Shown piece after piece: positions 46,193 to 49,369 of a DNA stretch of 64,000 nucleotides; positions within the stretch are counted from its first letter, which is position 1; the number at the start of each line of letters is the position of its first letter. The translations under genes and the position numbers were made by a program. The notes beneath the pieces are model-generated. The model saw only the letters and a list, made by a program, of their open reading frames with translations. It ran no database searches and had not been told where the DNA came from. The stretch is from Thermoplasmata archaeon (lineage in GTDB: Archaea; Thermoplasmatota; JASEFT01; JBBABA01), in NCBI GenBank assembly GCA_041657955.1, contig JBBABA010000001.1, positions 40,578 through 104,577 on the forward strand, in the 5' to 3' direction.

Positions 46193-46313
46193 TATATCAA
46201 ATATATGGTAATTGCGTGCGGTAAATGAAATTAACTGACGAATGAAGAATCTGGATTAATGCGGTTCAAGTGGGGGCTTAGAATAAGATTCAAATCAATT
46301 TGATGTGTGAAGA

Positions 46314-46943
46314 CTAAATATGACTTAAACGGATTAACGGCGGATCTGAATATGCTGGATCCATAATTATTGCTATTACGCCATGCTCATAACTCTCTTC
46401 TTTTTTTACTGTTTCCTGGATTATGAACAAGTCTTTCTTTGGTATTACATTTTCTGAATTTATGTCAACATACGTCCTGTAGCCCCACATACGCTCATTT
46501 ACCGCCATCACTACACATAGAAATACGGTGATTTTCTTACATGAACGTAAACTATAGTAATCGATGAACCCGTCTAGCTTTTTCTTAGAGGGACCCGACA
46601 GGTCGATGTCTAAATAGCCAACAGTTCTGGCCAAAAACTGATGACACTTATATGGAGGTATATCACCTCGCTCTTTCGCTTCTCTAAGAAGATTTTCATC
46701 TTTAACTAATTCCGTTGCATCTATGATTCTAGAGCCATCTATTTCGGGGTTAGATAGAACAGTTTTCGTTATTTGATCGAACAAACGATAGAGTTGTGCA
46801 TTTTTTGAATCAACGATTATTATTGTACTGCCTGGTGACTTTAGCGAAAAATAGAACGGCTCTAGTTCGTGCACCTCTTCTAGAATCGGGTTCATGTTGA
46901 TTTCGCCAAGACCAAGATCTGTATAATTTGATTTCTCACTCAT
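46314..46943 (-). CDS. hypothetical protein
   Basis: 209-aa ORF, no motif recognised; lies in the tRNA-Gly(GCC) accessory islet. Confidence 0.5.
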   Translation of the reverse strand: MSEKSNYTDLGLGEINMNPILEEVHELEPFYFSLKSPGSTIIIVDSKNAQLYRLFDQITKTVLSNPEIDGSRIIDATELVKDENLLREAKERGDIPPYKCHQFLARTVGYLDIDLSGPSKKKLDGFIDYYSLRSCKKITVFLCVVMAVNERMWGYRTYVDINSENVIPKKDLFIIQETVKKEESYEHGVIAIIMDPAYSDPPLIRLSHI

Positions 46944-47077
46944 TTTATAGTCTCCTGATTTTTAATTCATGTTATTGATTATAATTGGGTCCGCGTGAGA
47001 TATAAGTATATCTGTGGTAGGTGAGTGAAAGTACTATGTTGTCCAGATACATAAAAGAACAAATTTTCACATCAATG

Positions 47078-47127
47078 TTCAAATCCCTTCGCATTGGCTA
47101 ATTTATTTTATTGGTTAATATGCGGGG
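47078..47127 (+). repeat. tRNA-3'-half-derived repeat (copy 1)
   Basis: GTTCAAATCCCTTCGCATTGGCTAAT...GGTTAATATGCGGGG; ~80% identical to 47806-47857. Confidence 0.65.
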
Positions 47128-47224
47128 ATCTAAAGTAGCGGGCATCTTTGAGAACAGGACTCTACCAGGAAACTGAGTGCAAAACATTTAAATCTGACCA
47201 AATCAATATTTATCTGGTGAGTCC

Positions 47225-47644
47225 GTGTCTGAAAATAGAGGCGGAAAAGCGACGATTGTACTGTGGGAAGGCGAGAAAATTGGCTGGGGGCGGGGTCCAA
47301 GGTATGAACTTTTCATCACAGACCAAAGACTTGCATTCATAAAGCTCAAAGAGAAGAAGTCGTTTTTGAGGTGCACATGGGAGGTCTGCTCAGACAACAT
47401 CGATGAAGCGCTGAAAAATGAGGGAAGCTTTGAAGTGCCGATTAGCAAGATTATCGAAGCAAAGACAGACACAATTATGATGACGCATTATATGAGGGTA
47501 AGATTTCAGGCAGATTCTGGAGAAAAGGTATTCTCGTTCATTTTCGTGGCATCCGTGACCCCACATGGAATACCTCCTGTGGATGCTATGATTGCGTACA
47601 AGAAGGTTGCGAAACTCGTAGAACAGGCAAAAGGCGGAACGTGA
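47225..47644 (+). CDS. hypothetical protein (possible PH-like fold)
   Basis: 139-aa ORF bracketed by the two repeat copies. Confidence 0.45.
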   Translation: MSENRGGKATIVLWEGEKIGWGRGPRYELFITDQRLAFIKLKEKKSFLRCTWEVCSDNIDEALKNEGSFEVPISKIIEAKTDTIMMTHYMRVRFQADSGEKVFSFIFVASVTPHGIPPVDAMIAYKKVAKLVEQAKGGT

Positions 47645-47805
47645 ACACTACTAAAAGGTGAGTCGCACCTTCAAATCCCTCCGCACTAATCTATGAATAA
47701 AATAGCCAATTCGCATAGGGGCGTCGGGATTTGACATGGAAGTGCTCCGCACTTCCTGGTTAAAAAAATTTCAATATGATTGGTTAAAATTTTTTAACAC
47801 CTTCG

Positions 47806-47857
47806 GTTCAAATCCCGACGCATTGGCTAATCGGAAAAATCGGTTAATATGCGGGCG
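47806..47857 (+). repeat. tRNA-3'-half-derived repeat (copy 2); its right arm is the 3' end of tRNA-Gly(GCC)
   Basis: GTTCAAATCCCGACGCATTGGCTAAT...GGTTAATATGCGGGCG; forms a 17-bp inverted repeat with the tRNA end. Confidence 0.65.
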
Positions 47858-47922
47858 TCGGGATTTGAACCCGAGTTATTGGCTTGGCAAGCCAAAGTGA
47901 TACCAAGCTACACCACACCCGC
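47850..47922 (-). tRNA. tRNA-Gly (anticodon GCC)
   Basis: reverse complement folds: acceptor GCGGGTG/CGCCCGC, anticodon loop TTGCCAA, T-loop GGTTCAAATCC. Confidence 0.85.
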
Positions 47923-48160
47923 ATCTTTTCTTGCACTTCTTTCTAATAATCTAATTTTTCATATATTCTATGTTTCTTTCTACAATTTTTAAACTTTTTA
48001 TTATATCTTCCATATCTCTTTCTATAATTTTATTATTTATTTTATGATTTTTACTTTTCCCCAATCTTTCTCTAAATTATATTTTTATTAATTTCTATCT
48101 CAATTTTTTTCTATTGATTTTAGCGTCTCACATTAACGCCTATGCTATTATTAATCATAT

Positions 48161-48553
48161 TTATGTTTTAATCGTTTTCTTTGCCCACATATGTGTCTTT
48201 CTTATGAGATCTCTTGCAGATTTTCTGTCAAAGGGCGCTTCCTTCTCCTCTGGCAGTATGTCGTAACGGAATTCAACGGCATACGGTGATAGGATATCCA
48301 ACCCAGCAATATTAATAGGAATCGCTATTTTGTTATCTACTAGCAGATCTAGAAGTTCTTTTAGGTCATGGGTTTTTCTATATGTAATTTTCAACTCGGA
48401 CAACACCGCTTTCAGGAGCTTTTCAATCGCTTGTTGGCAATGGAAGCCGAAAATCTCATCGCTAACACGCTTGGAGGATATTATCTCATCCAACAAGGCC
48501 TCATCATCGGATGCTTTTTTCAATAATAGGAGAGCCTGCTCATGATGCTTCAT
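48161..48553 (-). CDS. HEPN-domain protein (toxin-like partner of the adjacent nucleotidyltransferase)
   Basis: Rx4HxL-type motif (YRKTHDL); 14-nt overlap with the upstream MNT gene. Confidence 0.7.
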   Translation of the reverse strand: MKHHEQALLLLKKASDDEALLDEIISSKRVSDEIFGFHCQQAIEKLLKAVLSELKITYRKTHDLKELLDLLVDNKIAIPINIAGLDILSPYAVEFRYDILPEEKEAPFDRKSARDLIRKTHMWAKKTIKT

Positions 48554-48857
48554 ACATCACCCTCCCCTCCAACGCGATTTCATATAGTATATTTCCGGGA
48601 GTGTCCGCCCAGTCGTTGAACACCCGATCACTTACTACTATAACATCTGCGGGTATCCTTAGCGGGCTCAAGATGCGTCTTAATCTTACCATTTCCATTC
48701 TGCGCCCCTTCAGCTCTTTTTCTACGACAAGAAAATCGAGATCGCTGTTTTCCGAAATGTCGCCGCGGGCATAAGAGCCAAACAGGATTATTTTGGCTGG
48801 TTTTGCGGCTTTTTTAAGAAGATCTACGGCTTTCTTGATTGTTGATTTAGGAATCAT
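48540..48857 (-). CDS. minimal nucleotidyltransferase (MNT / MntA-like)
   Basis: GSxxRG ... DxD motif (LFGSYARGDISENSDLDFLVV). Confidence 0.8.
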   Translation of the reverse strand: MIPKSTIKKAVDLLKKAAKPAKIILFGSYARGDISENSDLDFLVVEKELKGRRMEMVRLRRILSPLRIPADVIVVSDRVFNDWADTPGNILYEIALEGRVMYEAS

Positions 48858-48886
48858 ATTATGTCCTCATTTTCGGTATTATCTCA

Positions 48887-49369
48887 TTATCGTTTATATC
48901 CTATTTTCCTCAGGAACGTCTTTCTTTCCTTCGCTTCTTTCTCGTCCTCTATCCTTCTTATTTTGTGGCCGTCGATTACGCCTAGTATGCCGCGCCCCTC
49001 TTCGGTCTCTGCAATGATTACTTCGACATTATTGGCAGTGGCGCAATAGATCGAGCAGACTTCGCATACGTTTTTTACAGCATTAAGCACGTTCAGAGGA
49101 TAGGCATTTTTCATTGCTATTATAAACGTGTGGCCCGCGTTTATCTTTTTAGCGCTCTTTTTTGCCAGTTCGATCATCACAGCATCGTTTCCGTCGTGCC
49201 TTACGAGGCACAATCCGGAGGCCTCGCAAAATCCGACGCCGAACTTTACGCCGGGCACAGAGTTCACCATAGCCTCGTACAGATCCTCGACAGTTTTTAT
49301 GAAGTGCGACTGTCCGATGATTATGTTTACGTCTTCCGGCTTTTCGATTTTGACGGTTTTTATTTCCAT
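48887..49369 (-). CDS. conserved archaeal protein, adenosine-specific-kinase-like (tentative)
   Basis: ~160-aa conserved archaeal protein; family assignment from recollection only; start set at internal Met (MEIKTVKIEK). Confidence 0.45.
   Translation of the reverse strand: MEIKTVKIEKPEDVNIIIGQSHFIKTVEDLYEAMVNSVPGVKFGVGFCEASGLCLVRHDGNDAVMIELAKKSAKKINAGHTFIIAMKNAYPLNVLNAVKNVCEVCSIYCATANNVEVIIAETEEGRGILGVIDGHKIRRIEDEKEAKERKTFLRKIGYKR

What the first reader, a model, noticed from the sequence alone, without database searches (positions are those of the whole stretch)
46200..48900. Accessory islet at tRNA-Gly(GCC): orphan ORFs bracketed by tRNA-derived repeats beside a HEPN/MNT pair
Two copies of a ~50-bp element (47078-47127 and 47806-47857) bracket a 139-aa ORF of unknown function, with a 209-aa orphan ORF just upstream. 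Copy 2 forms a 17-bp inverted repeat with the 3' end of the real tRNA-Gly(GCC); copy 1 starts like the tRNA-Leu 3' end (GTTCAAATCCCTTC). Further fragments sit at 47667-47738. A HEPN/MNT module follows after a 230-bp AT-rich spacer. tRNA-flanked, repeat-bounded clusters of small unknown genes beside a toxin-antitoxin pair are typical of integrated-element remnants or defence islets.
Basis: seen in the sequence. Interest (0 to 1): 0.65.

Follow-up and report, generated by a model that had tools for sequence, protein, structure and literature searches.

The report
Decayed insertion scars behind tRNA-Gly
Behind an intact glycine tRNA gene of an uncultured Thermoplasmata archaeon lies a fossil stack of small insertions, each marked by a copy of the tRNA's 3' end plus an inverted copy, carrying two rare orphan genes; it is mostly ordinary, but the small palindromic insertion module recurs behind other tRNA genes and appears undescribed.

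Summary
tRNA-Gly(GCC) (47849-47923, minus strand) is followed by three units, each made of a tRNA 3'-end copy, a 29-nt spacer and an inverted T-arm copy. These units bracket ORF139, with ORF209 beyond them. A HEPN/MNT pair lies on the tRNA's 5' side.

- **The module recurs.** A homologous ~190-nt quasi-palindromic module (79% identity) follows the window's other tRNA-Gly gene (CCC, 22583-22655). A diverged version follows tRNA-Trp in a different Thermoplasmatales genome. At those two loci the flanking direct repeats clearly match the local tRNA's own 3' end, which marks insertions rather than a conserved tRNA feature; in the islet the outer repeat is degenerate.
- **ORF139** has a PH-like fold and six homologues, two of them pseudogenes. 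One pseudogene lies beside a tRNA-Ile gene and an IS630-type transposase.
- **ORF209** has low GC. Its single homologue sits directly after a type IIG restriction enzyme.
- **No sign of present activity.** The 64 kb encode no integrase, transposase or Cas1. The islet is 100% identical in eight metagenome contigs, and the ORFs match no defence model.

Verdict: this is a relic of serial site-specific insertions at a tRNA 3' end, with an unusual miniature integrase-less module. The defence-islet reading is unproven. Interest is moderate to low.

The parts
47849..47923 (-). Intact tRNA-Gly(GCC). Its 3' part (47851-47871) is sense copy S1, the anchor of the repeat series.
   Evidence: ARAGORN; Rfam tRNA 64.6 bits with a full-length model match.
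47805..47850 (-). It holds a 29-nt spacer (47822-47850), which contains a T5 run 12-16 nt after the tRNA end, and then A1, a perfect 17-nt inverted copy of the tRNA T-loop, T-stem and acceptor 3' strand (47805-47821).
   Evidence: Inverted repeat I1, direct repeats D1 and D5; coordinates; sequence.
47738..47804 (.). Centre of the module. In the tRNA direction it contains the conserved block CCGAAGGTGTT, an AT-rich palindrome (47759-47798) and a short hairpin (47738-47756).
   Evidence: Inverted repeats I7, I10 and I13. This part is at least 90% identical to the tRNA-Gly(CCC) module. The module matches its own reverse strand at E=2.5e-6.
47662..47735 (-). Unit 2. It consists of S2 (47716-47735, a tRNA 3'-end copy with a 16-nt exact core), a spacer containing ATTGGCT, and A2 (47662-47686, a diverged inverted copy followed by TGCGAC).
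   Evidence: D6, I4 (14 nt, 100% complementary to A1), I6 and I9; aligned with the locus at 22.6 kb.
47225..47644 (+). ORF139, a passenger gene lying between unit 2 and unit 3. It is a PH/PTB-like small protein. A TTTAAAT box lies at 47187-47193.
47077..47134 (-). It consists of a degenerate tRNA 3'-end copy S3 (47122-47134, with an apparent 6-nt deletion), a 29-nt spacer homologous to that of unit 1, and A3 (47077-47092).
   Evidence: D1 92% and D5 94%; coordinates. The 6-nt deletion was read from the sequence by eye.
46314..46943 (-). ORF209, a low-GC orphan gene (GC 0.379, GC3 0.357). A GGAG motif lies upstream of its ATG.
   Evidence: It finds only itself among 5.8 billion clusters. A profile-free search of 1.8 billion representatives finds one homologue at 48% identity. 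That homologue follows a type IIG restriction-modification enzyme. Composition.
46239..46313 (.). Outer edge of the islet. It carries possible last fragments: TTCAAATC/CATCAAAT at 46287-46305, and TTAATGCGGTTCAAG at 46256-46270. Homology to the related genome L050 resumes at about 46238.
   Evidence: Local alignment with L050; motif coordinates. The assignment of these fragments is inference.
47924..48160 (.). AT-rich (about 31% GC) spacer upstream of the tRNA, presumably holding the tRNA promoter. It contains imperfect 42-nt and 55-nt direct repeats.
   Evidence: Composition; D2 and D3. The promoter role is inference.
48161..48857 (-). MNT (48540-48857) and HEPN (48161-48553) gene pair, overlapping by 14 nt. 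It lies on the 5' side of the tRNA, outside the repeat-bounded DNA.
   Evidence: Pfam HEPN 1.9e-16; NTP_transf_2 2.3e-11 and Polbeta 2.9e-11. GSx(10)DxD motif in MNT and RDLIRKTH in HEPN. The NCBIfam MntA score is below its cut-off.
22583..22929 (+). Sister locus, outside the finding's coordinates. tRNA-Gly(CCC) (22583-22655) is followed by two tandem units of 131 and 141 nt. The pieces are S1 22635-22657, A1 22680-22705, S2 22766-22788, A2 22813-22835 and S3 22913-22929.
   Evidence: Alignment at 79% identity with the islet module. Three direct copies of the tRNA 3' end at 78-91%. Coordinates.

Best explanation
The islet is a fossil stack of small site-specific insertions into the 3' end of tRNA-Gly(GCC).

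**Proposed mechanism (inferred).**
- An element carrying a copy of the tRNA's T-loop-to-3' end recombined with the tRNA gene. The most likely enzyme is a tyrosine-type integrase supplied in trans.
- This restored an intact tRNA and left a second copy of the tRNA 3' end at the far junction.
- The DNA that now follows the tRNA is the element's arm: a 29-nt spacer, an inverted T-arm copy with the signature GGGATTTGAACCGAAGGTG, an AT-rich palindrome and a hairpin.
- The inverted T-arm copy is most plausibly a second recombinase-binding site.
- Repetition of this process, possibly with local inverted duplication, stacked three units.
- Two units carry one passenger gene each: ORF139 (PH-like) and ORF209.

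**Present state.**
- Today the structure is inert. No recombinase is encoded nearby, the copies are diverged, and the islet is fixed in the population.
- The tRNA remains intact, with a T5 terminator run 12 nt past its end.
- The two ORFs have their own promoter-like and ribosome-binding signals.
- HEPN/MNT is an independent neighbouring toxin-antitoxin-type pair on the tRNA's promoter side.

**Shown versus inferred.** Shown: the repeat architecture, homology between loci, repeats matching the local tRNA, absence of recombinase genes, rarity and decay of the ORF families. Inferred: the integrase type, the role of the inverted copy, serial order of insertions, and the passenger status of the ORFs.
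For: **1. Repeats and intact tRNA.** Direct and inverted copies of the tRNA 3' end are present, and the tRNA is intact.

**2. Homology younger than the tRNAs.** The same ~190-nt module follows tRNA-Gly(CCC) at 79% identity, with a roughly 60-nt core at 90% or more. By inspection of the sequences, the two tRNA bodies are far more divergent than the modules. The module is therefore younger than the tRNA paralogy.

**3. Repeats matching the local tRNA.**
- The CCC locus has three copies of its own 3' end, CCCGGCAGCCGCACAT.
- In Thermoplasmatales MAG CSMAG_272, tRNA-Trp is followed by a module with the same 18-mer.
- That module is bounded by 16-33-nt direct repeats of the tRNA-Trp 3' end. The first and third repeats are 97% identical over 33 nt and extend past the gene.

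**4. Rarity.** The 18-mer occurs in only one archaeal genome among 185,579 species representatives. It does not occur in a module-like context in the metagenome or viral collections, so it is not a general tRNA feature.

**5. Published behaviour of archaeal integrases.** Archaeal tyrosine integrases prefer tRNA 3' ends, and their att sites can extend beyond the gene (PMC8371274).

**6. Accessory character of the ORFs.**
- ORF209 has GC3 of 0.357 against 0.491 +/- 0.060 for window genes.
- ORF209 has a single homologue.
- ORF139 has six homologues in unrelated contexts.
- One ORF139 homologue converges on tRNA-Ile beside an IS630-type transposase, and two are pseudogenes.

**7. Synteny break.** Homology with a relative ends at the islet edge, about 46238.
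Against: - No integrase, transposase or Cas1 gene is present in the 64-kb window.
- No autonomous relative of the module was found in viral, plasmid or phage collections.
- There is no empty-site or copy-number polymorphism. The islet is 100% identical in 8 contigs, and the CCC locus is invariant.
- Only three module-bearing loci are known, and none are near-identical, so mobility is inferred and not observed.
- A standard tyrosine-recombinase core needs no inverted copy 30-50 nt away, so the inverted T-arm is not explained by textbook att structure.
- ORF139 has typical host composition.
- The outer att-like copy in the islet is degenerate (6-nt deletion).
Confidence: 0.5

Rival explanations
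1. The module is a non-autonomous, MITE-like foldback element. It would be moved by a transposase-type enzyme that reads the T-loop, for example a casposase (Cas1-type) or another DDE or HUH enzyme, and not by an integrase. The repeats of the tRNA 3' end would then be target-site duplications.
For: - The element core has 14-22-bp terminal inverted repeats (GCGTCGGGATTTGA ... TCAAATCCCGACGC, 100% complementary, 73 nt apart).
- It folds as a strong cruciform (z=-7.6 and -5.8).
- The core is about 100 bp in all three loci.
- The casposase of Aciduliprofundum boonei recognises exactly TCAAATC in the T-loop of tRNA-Pro and makes 14-15-bp duplications at the tRNA 3' end (PMC6614799).
- In L028, CC follows TCAAATC after 8 bp, as in that target (read from the sequence).
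Against: - The repeated blocks are 16-33 nt and include the region upstream of the predicted casposase cut. A clean 14-15-bp duplication is not seen.
- No terminal inverted repeats sit directly against the repeats.
- The window encodes no Cas1 or PolB.
- No multi-copy dispersal is seen; the window has only the two tRNA-linked loci.
Confidence: 0.15
2. No mobile element was involved. The architecture arose by local inverted and tandem duplication at the tRNA 3' end, through replication template switching at quasi-palindromes or unequal crossing-over. The similarity between the two tRNA-Gly loci would reflect gene conversion.
For: - The whole 47662-47871 region is a nested palindrome whose outer arm is the tRNA itself.
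- Unit 2's spacer is inverted relative to units 1 and 3 (I2). Template switching at inverted repeats would produce this.
- From memory, not checked here: tandem repeats carrying tRNA 3' fragments arise by unequal recombination downstream of E. coli tyrT.
Against: - It does not explain how the same 18-20-nt signature and layout occur behind three different tRNAs (Gly-GCC, Gly-CCC, and Trp in another genome), each with repeats of its own 3' end.
- It does not explain foreign-looking ORF209 and sporadic ORF139 lying between the units.
- The shared T-loop 11-mer is too short for ordinary gene conversion between loci.
Confidence: 0.12
3. The module is a functional cis element of tRNA-Gly genes. It could be a structured 3' trailer or terminator, or an AT-box promoter driving a small sense or antisense RNA that pairs with the tRNA T-arm and tunes tRNA-Gly maturation.
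For: - It is present behind both tRNA-Gly genes of the window.
- A roughly 60-nt core (GGATTTGAACCGAAGGTGTT plus the AT box) is at least 90% identical, while the flanks are about 60-70% identical.
- Folding z-scores are strong.
- The AT boxes resemble archaeal TATA elements (inference).
Against: - It is absent from tRNA-Leu and the intron-containing tRNA in the same window.
- The 18-mer is absent from all but one of 185,579 species genomes.
- Differences between sense and inverted copies are uncompensated: GA against TC or TT.
- In the islet, a T5 run precedes the inverted copy, so it is probably not co-transcribed with the tRNA.
- No Rfam family matches.
Confidence: 0.1
4. The region is an active defence islet. 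ORF209 and/or ORF139, together with HEPN/MNT, would form an anti-virus system kept at a tRNA hotspot.
For: - ORF209's only homologue lies 10 bp downstream of a type IIG restriction-modification enzyme (PADLOC 4e-87) and upstream of a protein with a precomputed DUF4747 annotation.
- MNT matches PADLOC candidate family PDC-S09.
- HEPN/MNT pairs are common in archaeal defence neighbourhoods (general knowledge).
- The islet is fixed and intact in all sampled genomes.
Against: - No defence, phage or curated family matches ORF209.
- ORF139 gets only a non-significant PADLOC hit (E=0.015).
- The association rests on a single neighbourhood.
- The DUF4747 annotation was not reproduced by my Pfam scan.
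- ORF139 homologues decay into pseudogenes.
- HEPN/MNT is separated from the ORFs by the tRNA, and the three transcription units are independent.
Confidence: 0.08

Closest known systems
Remnants of tRNA-targeted archaeal integrative elements (tyrosine-integrase plasmids and viruses such as the SSV, pT26-2 and SNJ2 types; review PMC8371274; tRNA fragments as integration scars, PMC9897764)
   Same: [quoted passage not shown]
- Partial direct copies of the tRNA 3' end flank foreign, ORFan-rich DNA.
- The att identity extends beyond the gene.
   Different: - The units are tiny: about 130-350 bp non-coding, and about 720-870 bp with one gene.
- No integrase or integrase fragment is present.
- Each unit carries an inverted T-arm copy 30-50 nt from the sense copy, plus a palindromic AT-rich core, which is not part of described att sites.
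[quoted passage not shown]
Casposon insertion at tRNA-Pro in Aciduliprofundum boonei (PMC6614799, PMC5137440)
   Same: - The target lies at a tRNA 3' end.
- The enzyme reads the T-loop motif TCAAATC, which is the very motif multiplied here.
- Repeated insertion next to the tRNA-proximal repeat would build arrays.
   Different: - Casposons are large, encode Cas1 and PolB, and have terminal inverted repeats and a 14-15-bp duplication.
- Here the repeats are 16-33 nt, no Cas1 or PolB is present, and no terminal inverted repeats abut the repeats.
Integron gene cassettes (attC hairpin plus one promoterless ORF, stacked at attI)
   Same: - Stacked short units, each with an imperfect hairpin-forming site of about 65 nt.
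- Each unit holds zero or one small gene.
- The stack is anchored at a fixed site.
   Different: - No IntI is present.
- The hairpins lack the attC R''/R' consensus (RYYYAAC / GTTRRRY).
- The ORFs have their own promoter-like signals and opposite orientations.
- The anchor is a tRNA gene.
E. coli tyrT-rtT 178-bp repeats carrying the 3'-terminal part of tRNA-Tyr (recalled from memory, not checked here)
   Same: Tandem units downstream of a tRNA gene, each beginning with a copy of the tRNA's 3' end.
   Different: - These are bacterial and contain no inverted copies.
- They are attributed to unequal recombination and not to insertion.
- There is no spread to other tRNA genes.
HEPN-MNT (minimal nucleotidyltransferase) toxin-antitoxin-type pairs of archaea
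   Same: - MNT lies upstream and overlaps HEPN by 14 nt.
- Pfam domains and the GSx(10)DxD and Rx6H motifs are present.
   Different: - HEPN is of the PF05168 type, not the DUF86/HepT type.
- The MntA equivalog score (32.9) is below its cut-off (60).
- Activity was not tested.

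Membership tests
tRNA-integrated genetic element (integrase type), remnant | Inserted DNA abuts the 3' part of an intact tRNA gene | tested here: met
   tRNA-Gly(GCC) scores 64.6 bits with a full-length match. The repeats start inside its T-loop and 3' end.
tRNA-integrated genetic element (integrase type), remnant | Direct repeats of the tRNA 3' end (attL/attR) bound the inserted DNA | tested here: met
   - Islet: S1, S2 (16-nt exact core) and S3 (degenerate), with a roughly 50-nt in-register repeat between copies 2 and 1.
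- CCC locus: three copies at 78-91%.
- L028: a 33-nt repeat at 97%.
tRNA-integrated genetic element (integrase type), remnant | Integrase gene (or fragments of one) within or next to the element | tested here: not met
   No recombinase family was found in any ORF of the 64-kb window.
tRNA-integrated genetic element (integrase type), remnant | Presence/absence polymorphism or an empty site in relatives | tested here: inconclusive
   - The islet is identical in 8 contigs.
- The 80%-identical relative L050 has lost synteny at the islet edge and shows no tRNA-Gly there.
tRNA-integrated genetic element (integrase type), remnant | Foreign composition or sporadic distribution of the cargo | tested here: met
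   - ORF209 has GC3 of 0.357, about 2.2 sd below window genes, and one homologue.
- ORF139 has six homologues, two of them pseudogenes, but host-like composition.
Casposon or casposase-made insertion | 14-15-bp target duplication, terminal inverted repeats, and Cas1 with PolB | tested here: not met
   The repeats are 16-33 nt and include the sequence upstream of the predicted cut. No Cas1 or PolB is present. Only the TCAAATC target motif is shared (PMC6614799).
MITE | Terminal inverted repeats, a short fixed target duplication, and many dispersed copies | tested here: inconclusive
   - Inverted termini of 14-22 bp and a core of about 100 bp are present.
- Only three loci are known, all tRNA-linked, and there is no short fixed duplication.
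Integron cassette array | IntI integrase and attC sites with the R''/R' consensus | tested here: not met
   No integrase is present. The hairpin sequences lack RYYYAAC / GTTRRRY (read).
Known anti-phage defence system (PADLOC) | Significant match of the ORFs to a defence-protein model | tested here: not met
   ORF209 has no hit. ORF139 gets only E=0.015. HEPN has no hit. MNT matches candidate family PDC-S09 only.
HEPN-MNT toxin-antitoxin pair | Adjacent or overlapping MNT and HEPN genes with the family domains and motifs | tested here: met
   Pfam HEPN 1.9e-16 and NTP_transf_2 2.3e-11. There is a 14-nt overlap. The GSYARGDISENSDLD and RDLIRKTH motifs are present.
Type VII HepT/MntA system (NCBIfam equivalog) | Score above the curated MntA cut-off | tested here: not met
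   32.9 bits against a cut-off of 60.
Described RNA family (Rfam) | Match of the module to any covariance model | tested here: not met
   Only the tRNA itself passes. The hairpin gives chance-level miRNA-model hits with E of 0.15 or more.

The most novel reading that the evidence does not exclude
Thermoplasmata may harbour a family of miniature, integrase-less insertion cassettes that target the T-loop and 3' end of tRNA genes. Each would carry an inverted T-arm hairpin site and zero or one passenger gene, and they would stack in arrays behind the tRNA. This would be an integron-like gene-capture platform anchored on tRNA genes, served in trans by an unidentified recombinase, possibly one that reads TCAAATC as the A. 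boonei casposase does.
Probability: 0.15. Interest if true: 0.65.

Novelty: new variant of a known kind. Interest (0 to 1): 0.35.

Why it matters
If the reading is right, the islet adds Thermoplasmata to the lineages in which tRNA 3' ends collect foreign DNA. It also shows an unusually small insertion unit, 130-350 bp without a gene and 700-900 bp with one gene. That unit spread to at least three tRNA genes without carrying its own recombinase.

Three uses would follow:
- A sequence signature (GGGATTTGAACCGAAGGTG downstream of a tRNA) for finding such scars.
- A possible handle on the recombinase that reads the T-loop.
- Two orphan protein families (PH-like ORF139, and ORF209 linked once to a restriction enzyme) as candidates for accessory or conflict functions.

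As it stands, the islet is inert, fixed and clonal. Its practical importance is small.

Tried and rejected
**Searches that found nothing**
- Collection scans for the 18-mer GGATTTGAACCGAAGGTG: viral, 0 hits. Genomes, 13 hits of which 12 are bacterial chance matches and one is the Thermoplasmatales MAG. Metagenomes, 17 hits, none with a module-like context.
- Viral scan for the generic architecture GGTTCAAATCC-N35-65-GGATTTGAACC: 0 hits.
- BLAST of the module and tblastn of both ORFs against plasmids and phages: no match.
- Viral loci for both ORF families: none.
- nhmmer with a three-copy module profile over the window and all fetched loci: no further copies.

**Structure and sequence comparisons that gave nothing**
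- AF2 on ORF209 as a single sequence: pLDDT 35.6, unusable.
- PDB profile search for ORF209: only noise.
- ORF188, next to the CCC locus, against ORF209: unrelated.
- BFVD fold search for ORF139: nothing at E of 0.001 or better.

- afdb50 fold library: unavailable.

**Ideas considered and dropped**
- Split or permuted tRNA halves: no matching 5' halves, and the T-stem is broken.
- A second, convergent tRNA gene: Rfam finds none.
- SSV-type split integrase: the 54-aa ORF across the tRNA has no Pfam hit.
- Integron attC: the consensus is absent.
- Replication origin: no Orc1/Cdc6 gene is adjacent and no ORB-like boxes are present.
- Large-serine-integrase att sites: these would leave no direct repeats.

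Full report
**1. What is there**

The window comes from an uncultured Thermoplasmata archaeon. NCBI names the ORF209 protein 'MAG: hypothetical protein WC974_00385 [Thermoplasmata archaeon]', and its neighbours likewise.

tRNA-Gly(GCC) lies at 47849-47923 on the minus strand and is intact (ARAGORN; Rfam 64.6 bits).

The repeat finder aligns 47077-47102 with 47806-47831 (26 nt, 92%) and 47110-47126 with 47839-47855 (17 nt, 94%). Copy 2 is an inverted copy of the tRNA's 3' part: 26 nt at 85%, with a perfect 17-mer at 47805-47821.

Between the two copies lie further pieces:
- a 16-nt exact direct copy of the tRNA 3' end (47719-47734);
- a diverged inverted copy (47662-47686);
- an AT-rich palindrome (47759-47798);
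- a short hairpin (47738-47756).

The T-arm motif occurs 7 times in the window against 0.10 expected, always in tRNA genes or behind the two tRNA-Gly genes.

**2. The repeats belong to a larger module shared with other tRNA genes**

The weak third match of CATTGGCTAAT (22786) led to the window's second tRNA-Gly gene (CCC, 22583-22655, plus strand). Read in the tRNA direction, the ~190 nt behind both tRNA-Gly genes align collinearly at 79% identity. Within that, GGATTTGAACCGAAGGTGTT plus an AT box are at least 90% identical.

Each module has this order:
- a sense copy (the tRNA 3' end itself);
- a spacer of about 26-29 nt;
- an inverted T-arm copy;
- an AT-rich palindrome and a hairpin;
- a second sense copy;
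- a second spacer;
- a second inverted copy.

By inspection of the sequences, the two tRNA bodies are much more divergent than the modules. The module is therefore younger than the Gly isoacceptor split.

At the CCC locus, the repeat finder reports three direct copies of that tRNA's own 3' end (22638, 22769, 22910; 78-91%). They bound two tandem units of 131 and 141 nt.

A genome-collection scan with the 18-mer gave one archaeal hit among 185,579 species representatives: Thermoplasmatales MAG CSMAG_272. The other 12 hits are bacterial chance matches. In that MAG:
- An intron-containing tRNA-Trp (Rfam) is followed by an inverted T-arm copy with the same 18-mer (17-nt inverted repeat, 94%).
- Hairpins follow it.
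- Three direct copies of the tRNA-Trp 3' end are present. The first and third are 97% identical over 33 nt and extend past the gene.

Direct repeats that change with the host tRNA, while the internal signature stays the same, are the mark of insertion. They do not indicate segmental duplication or a conserved tRNA feature.

The module is absent behind tRNA-Leu and the intron-containing tRNA of the window. No further copy exists in the window or in any fetched locus.

**3. The islet read with this key**

In the tRNA direction the order is as follows:
- tRNA (S1)
- palindromic centre
- unit 2 (S2, spacer, A2)
- ORF139, antisense
- ORF209
- possible last T-loop fragments at 46256-46305
- the MFS transporter promoter

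Homology with a related genome (MFS 80% identical, L050) resumes at about 46238. This marks the outer edge. In that relative the upstream DNA is different and holds no tRNA-Gly.

The region 46200-47200 has 36-38% GC against 42-50% in the flanks.

As single-stranded DNA the module folds far better than shuffles (z=-7.6 and -5.8). It also matches its own reverse strand (E=2.5e-6), so it is a nested quasi-palindrome.

Differences between sense and inverted copies are uncompensated (GA against TC or TT). This argues against selection for pairing.

**4. The two ORFs**

ORF139:
- It has only six homologues among 5.8 billion protein clusters and no family assignment.
- With the seven-sequence alignment, AF2 gives a beta-sandwich with a C-terminal helix (pLDDT 65.7).
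- Its homologues sit in unrelated contexts.
- One homologue converges on a tRNA-Ile gene beside an IS630-type transposase.
- That copy and one other are pseudogenes with in-frame stops; the tRNA-Ile copy also has a frameshift, and the other is truncated at its N-terminus.

ORF209:
- It is compositionally atypical (GC 0.379, GC3 0.357, against 0.450 +/- 0.031 and 0.491 +/- 0.060).
- It finds only itself in the word-indexed search.
- The exhaustive search finds one collinear homologue at 48% identity.
- That homologue lies 10 bp after a type IIG restriction-modification enzyme (PADLOC 4e-87). It precedes a protein precomputed as DUF4747. My own Pfam scan did not reproduce the DUF4747 hit.
- Single-sequence AF2 failed.

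Neither ORF matches viral, plasmid or phage records.

**5. HEPN/MNT**

Both domains are confirmed. MNT overlaps HEPN by 14 nt, and the GSx(10)DxD and Rx6H motifs are present. The NCBIfam MntA equivalog score is below its cut-off.

The pair lies upstream of the tRNA on its promoter side, beyond a 237-bp spacer of about 31% GC. It is therefore not inside the repeat-bounded DNA.

**6. Mobility genes and polymorphism**

No integrase, transposase or Cas1 family was found in the ORFs of the 64 kb.

The 2.7-kb islet is 100% identical in eight contigs from three projects, and the CCC locus is invariant. Some of those strains nevertheless differ in gene content directly beyond the MFS gene. Mobility is therefore historical inference, not current activity.

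**7. Mechanism**

The best-supported reading (about 0.5) is a relic of serial site-specific insertions at the tRNA 3' end by small elements served in trans. This is consistent with the published preference of archaeal tyrosine integrases for tRNA 3' ends and with att sites that extend past the gene (PMC8371274). tRNA fragments are a known kind of integration scar (PMC9897764). The inverted T-arm copy would be an extra binding site in the element's arm, and the two ORFs would be passengers.

The main rivals are:
- **A transposase- or casposase-driven foldback element.** The A. boonei casposase reads exactly TCAAATC in a T-loop (PMC6614799). However, the repeat lengths do not fit a 14-15-bp duplication.
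- **Purely local palindromic or tandem duplication.** This fails to explain three different tRNAs each with its own repeats.
- **A functional tRNA-Gly cis element or small RNA.** This fails on distribution and on uncompensated changes, although the 60-nt core is suspiciously conserved.
- **An active defence islet.** This rests on a single neighbourhood.

**8. Novelty and verdict**

The islet itself is an ordinary kind of thing: accessory ORFans at a tRNA 3' end beside a toxin-antitoxin-type pair.

What seems undescribed is the miniature, integrase-less, quasi-palindromic module with an inverted T-arm copy. It recurs behind different tRNA genes, and in the islet it carries single genes. With three loci and no autonomous relative, the evidence is thin.

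I rate it a new variant of a known kind, interest 0.35. The untested integron-like 'tRNA-anchored cassette' reading is the most novel option not excluded (probability about 0.15).

Noticed in passing
window 22583-22929: tRNA-Gly(CCC) is followed by two tandem 131/141-nt units homologous to the islet module. They are bounded by three copies of this tRNA's own 3' end. A 188-aa ORF with no family (22977-23543, minus strand) converges on it.
   Followed up: yes
L028 380-960 (JAUVCN010000003.1, Thermoplasmatales MAG CSMAG_272): An intron-bearing tRNA-Trp has a 137-nt intron with a weak C/D-box sRNA-like match (Rfam sR3, 23.7 bits, below threshold). It is followed by the same 18-mer module. Two hairpins have identical geometry (12-bp stem, 23-nt loop) but unrelated sequence, one in each unit.
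   Followed up: partly
window 23800-24112: Archaeal SRP RNA (Rfam 170.8 bits) fills most of the long 'intergenic' gap next to the tRNA-Gly(CCC) locus.
   Followed up: no
window 16057-16185: An intron-containing tRNA (Rfam 46.2 bits) was missed by ARAGORN. Its anticodon looks like GTA (Tyr), and CCA appears to be encoded. No module lies downstream.
   Followed up: partly
window about 44750-44812, compared with L002/L004/L009-L011: Strains with an identical islet differ directly beyond the MFS gene. One type has CopA (775 aa). The other has a 172-aa ORF, Band_7/zinc-ribbon proteins, a small HMA protein and an ABC/MacB set. This is a strain-level replacement breakpoint 1.4 kb from the islet.
   Followed up: no
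L050 600-2376: In the 80%-identical relative, a 1.7-kb segment with an AAA_14/DUF4143 ATPase gene is inserted at the MFS 5' end. About 130 bp (promoter plus first codons) are duplicated on both sides.
   Followed up: partly
window 45360-45680 (inside the MFS gene 44813-46192): The MFS transporter carries a roughly 110-aa insert of imperfect K-I-E-S/N-D/N-K-A type repeats in its central loop. The orthologue in L050 is 36 aa shorter, so the repeat number may vary.
   Followed up: no
L051 58-4365: The only homologue of ORF209 sits in a compact cluster: a type IIG restriction-modification enzyme, the ORF209-like protein, then a 275-aa protein precomputed as DUF4747. My Pfam scan did not reproduce the DUF4747 hit. 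This is a candidate defence neighbourhood.
   Followed up: partly
L046 104-1976: An ORF139 pseudogene is wedged between an IS630-type (DDE_3) transposase, which has 25-nt inverted ends, and a convergent tRNA-Ile(GAT). No T-arm repeats were seen there.
   Followed up: partly
window 47924-48160: The AT-rich spacer (about 31% GC) between HEPN and the tRNA contains imperfect direct repeats: 35 nt at 42-nt spacing, 30 nt at 55-nt spacing, and a 12-nt tandem. It is presumably the tRNA promoter region.
   Followed up: no
window 1714-2151 and 16671-17870: Two other low-GC ORFs (GC3 0.336 and 0.343). Neither gave a hit in my Pfam scans, though a precomputed annotation lists PF28206:Vpar_1526 for the second. 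They are further candidates for foreign genes in this window.
   Followed up: no
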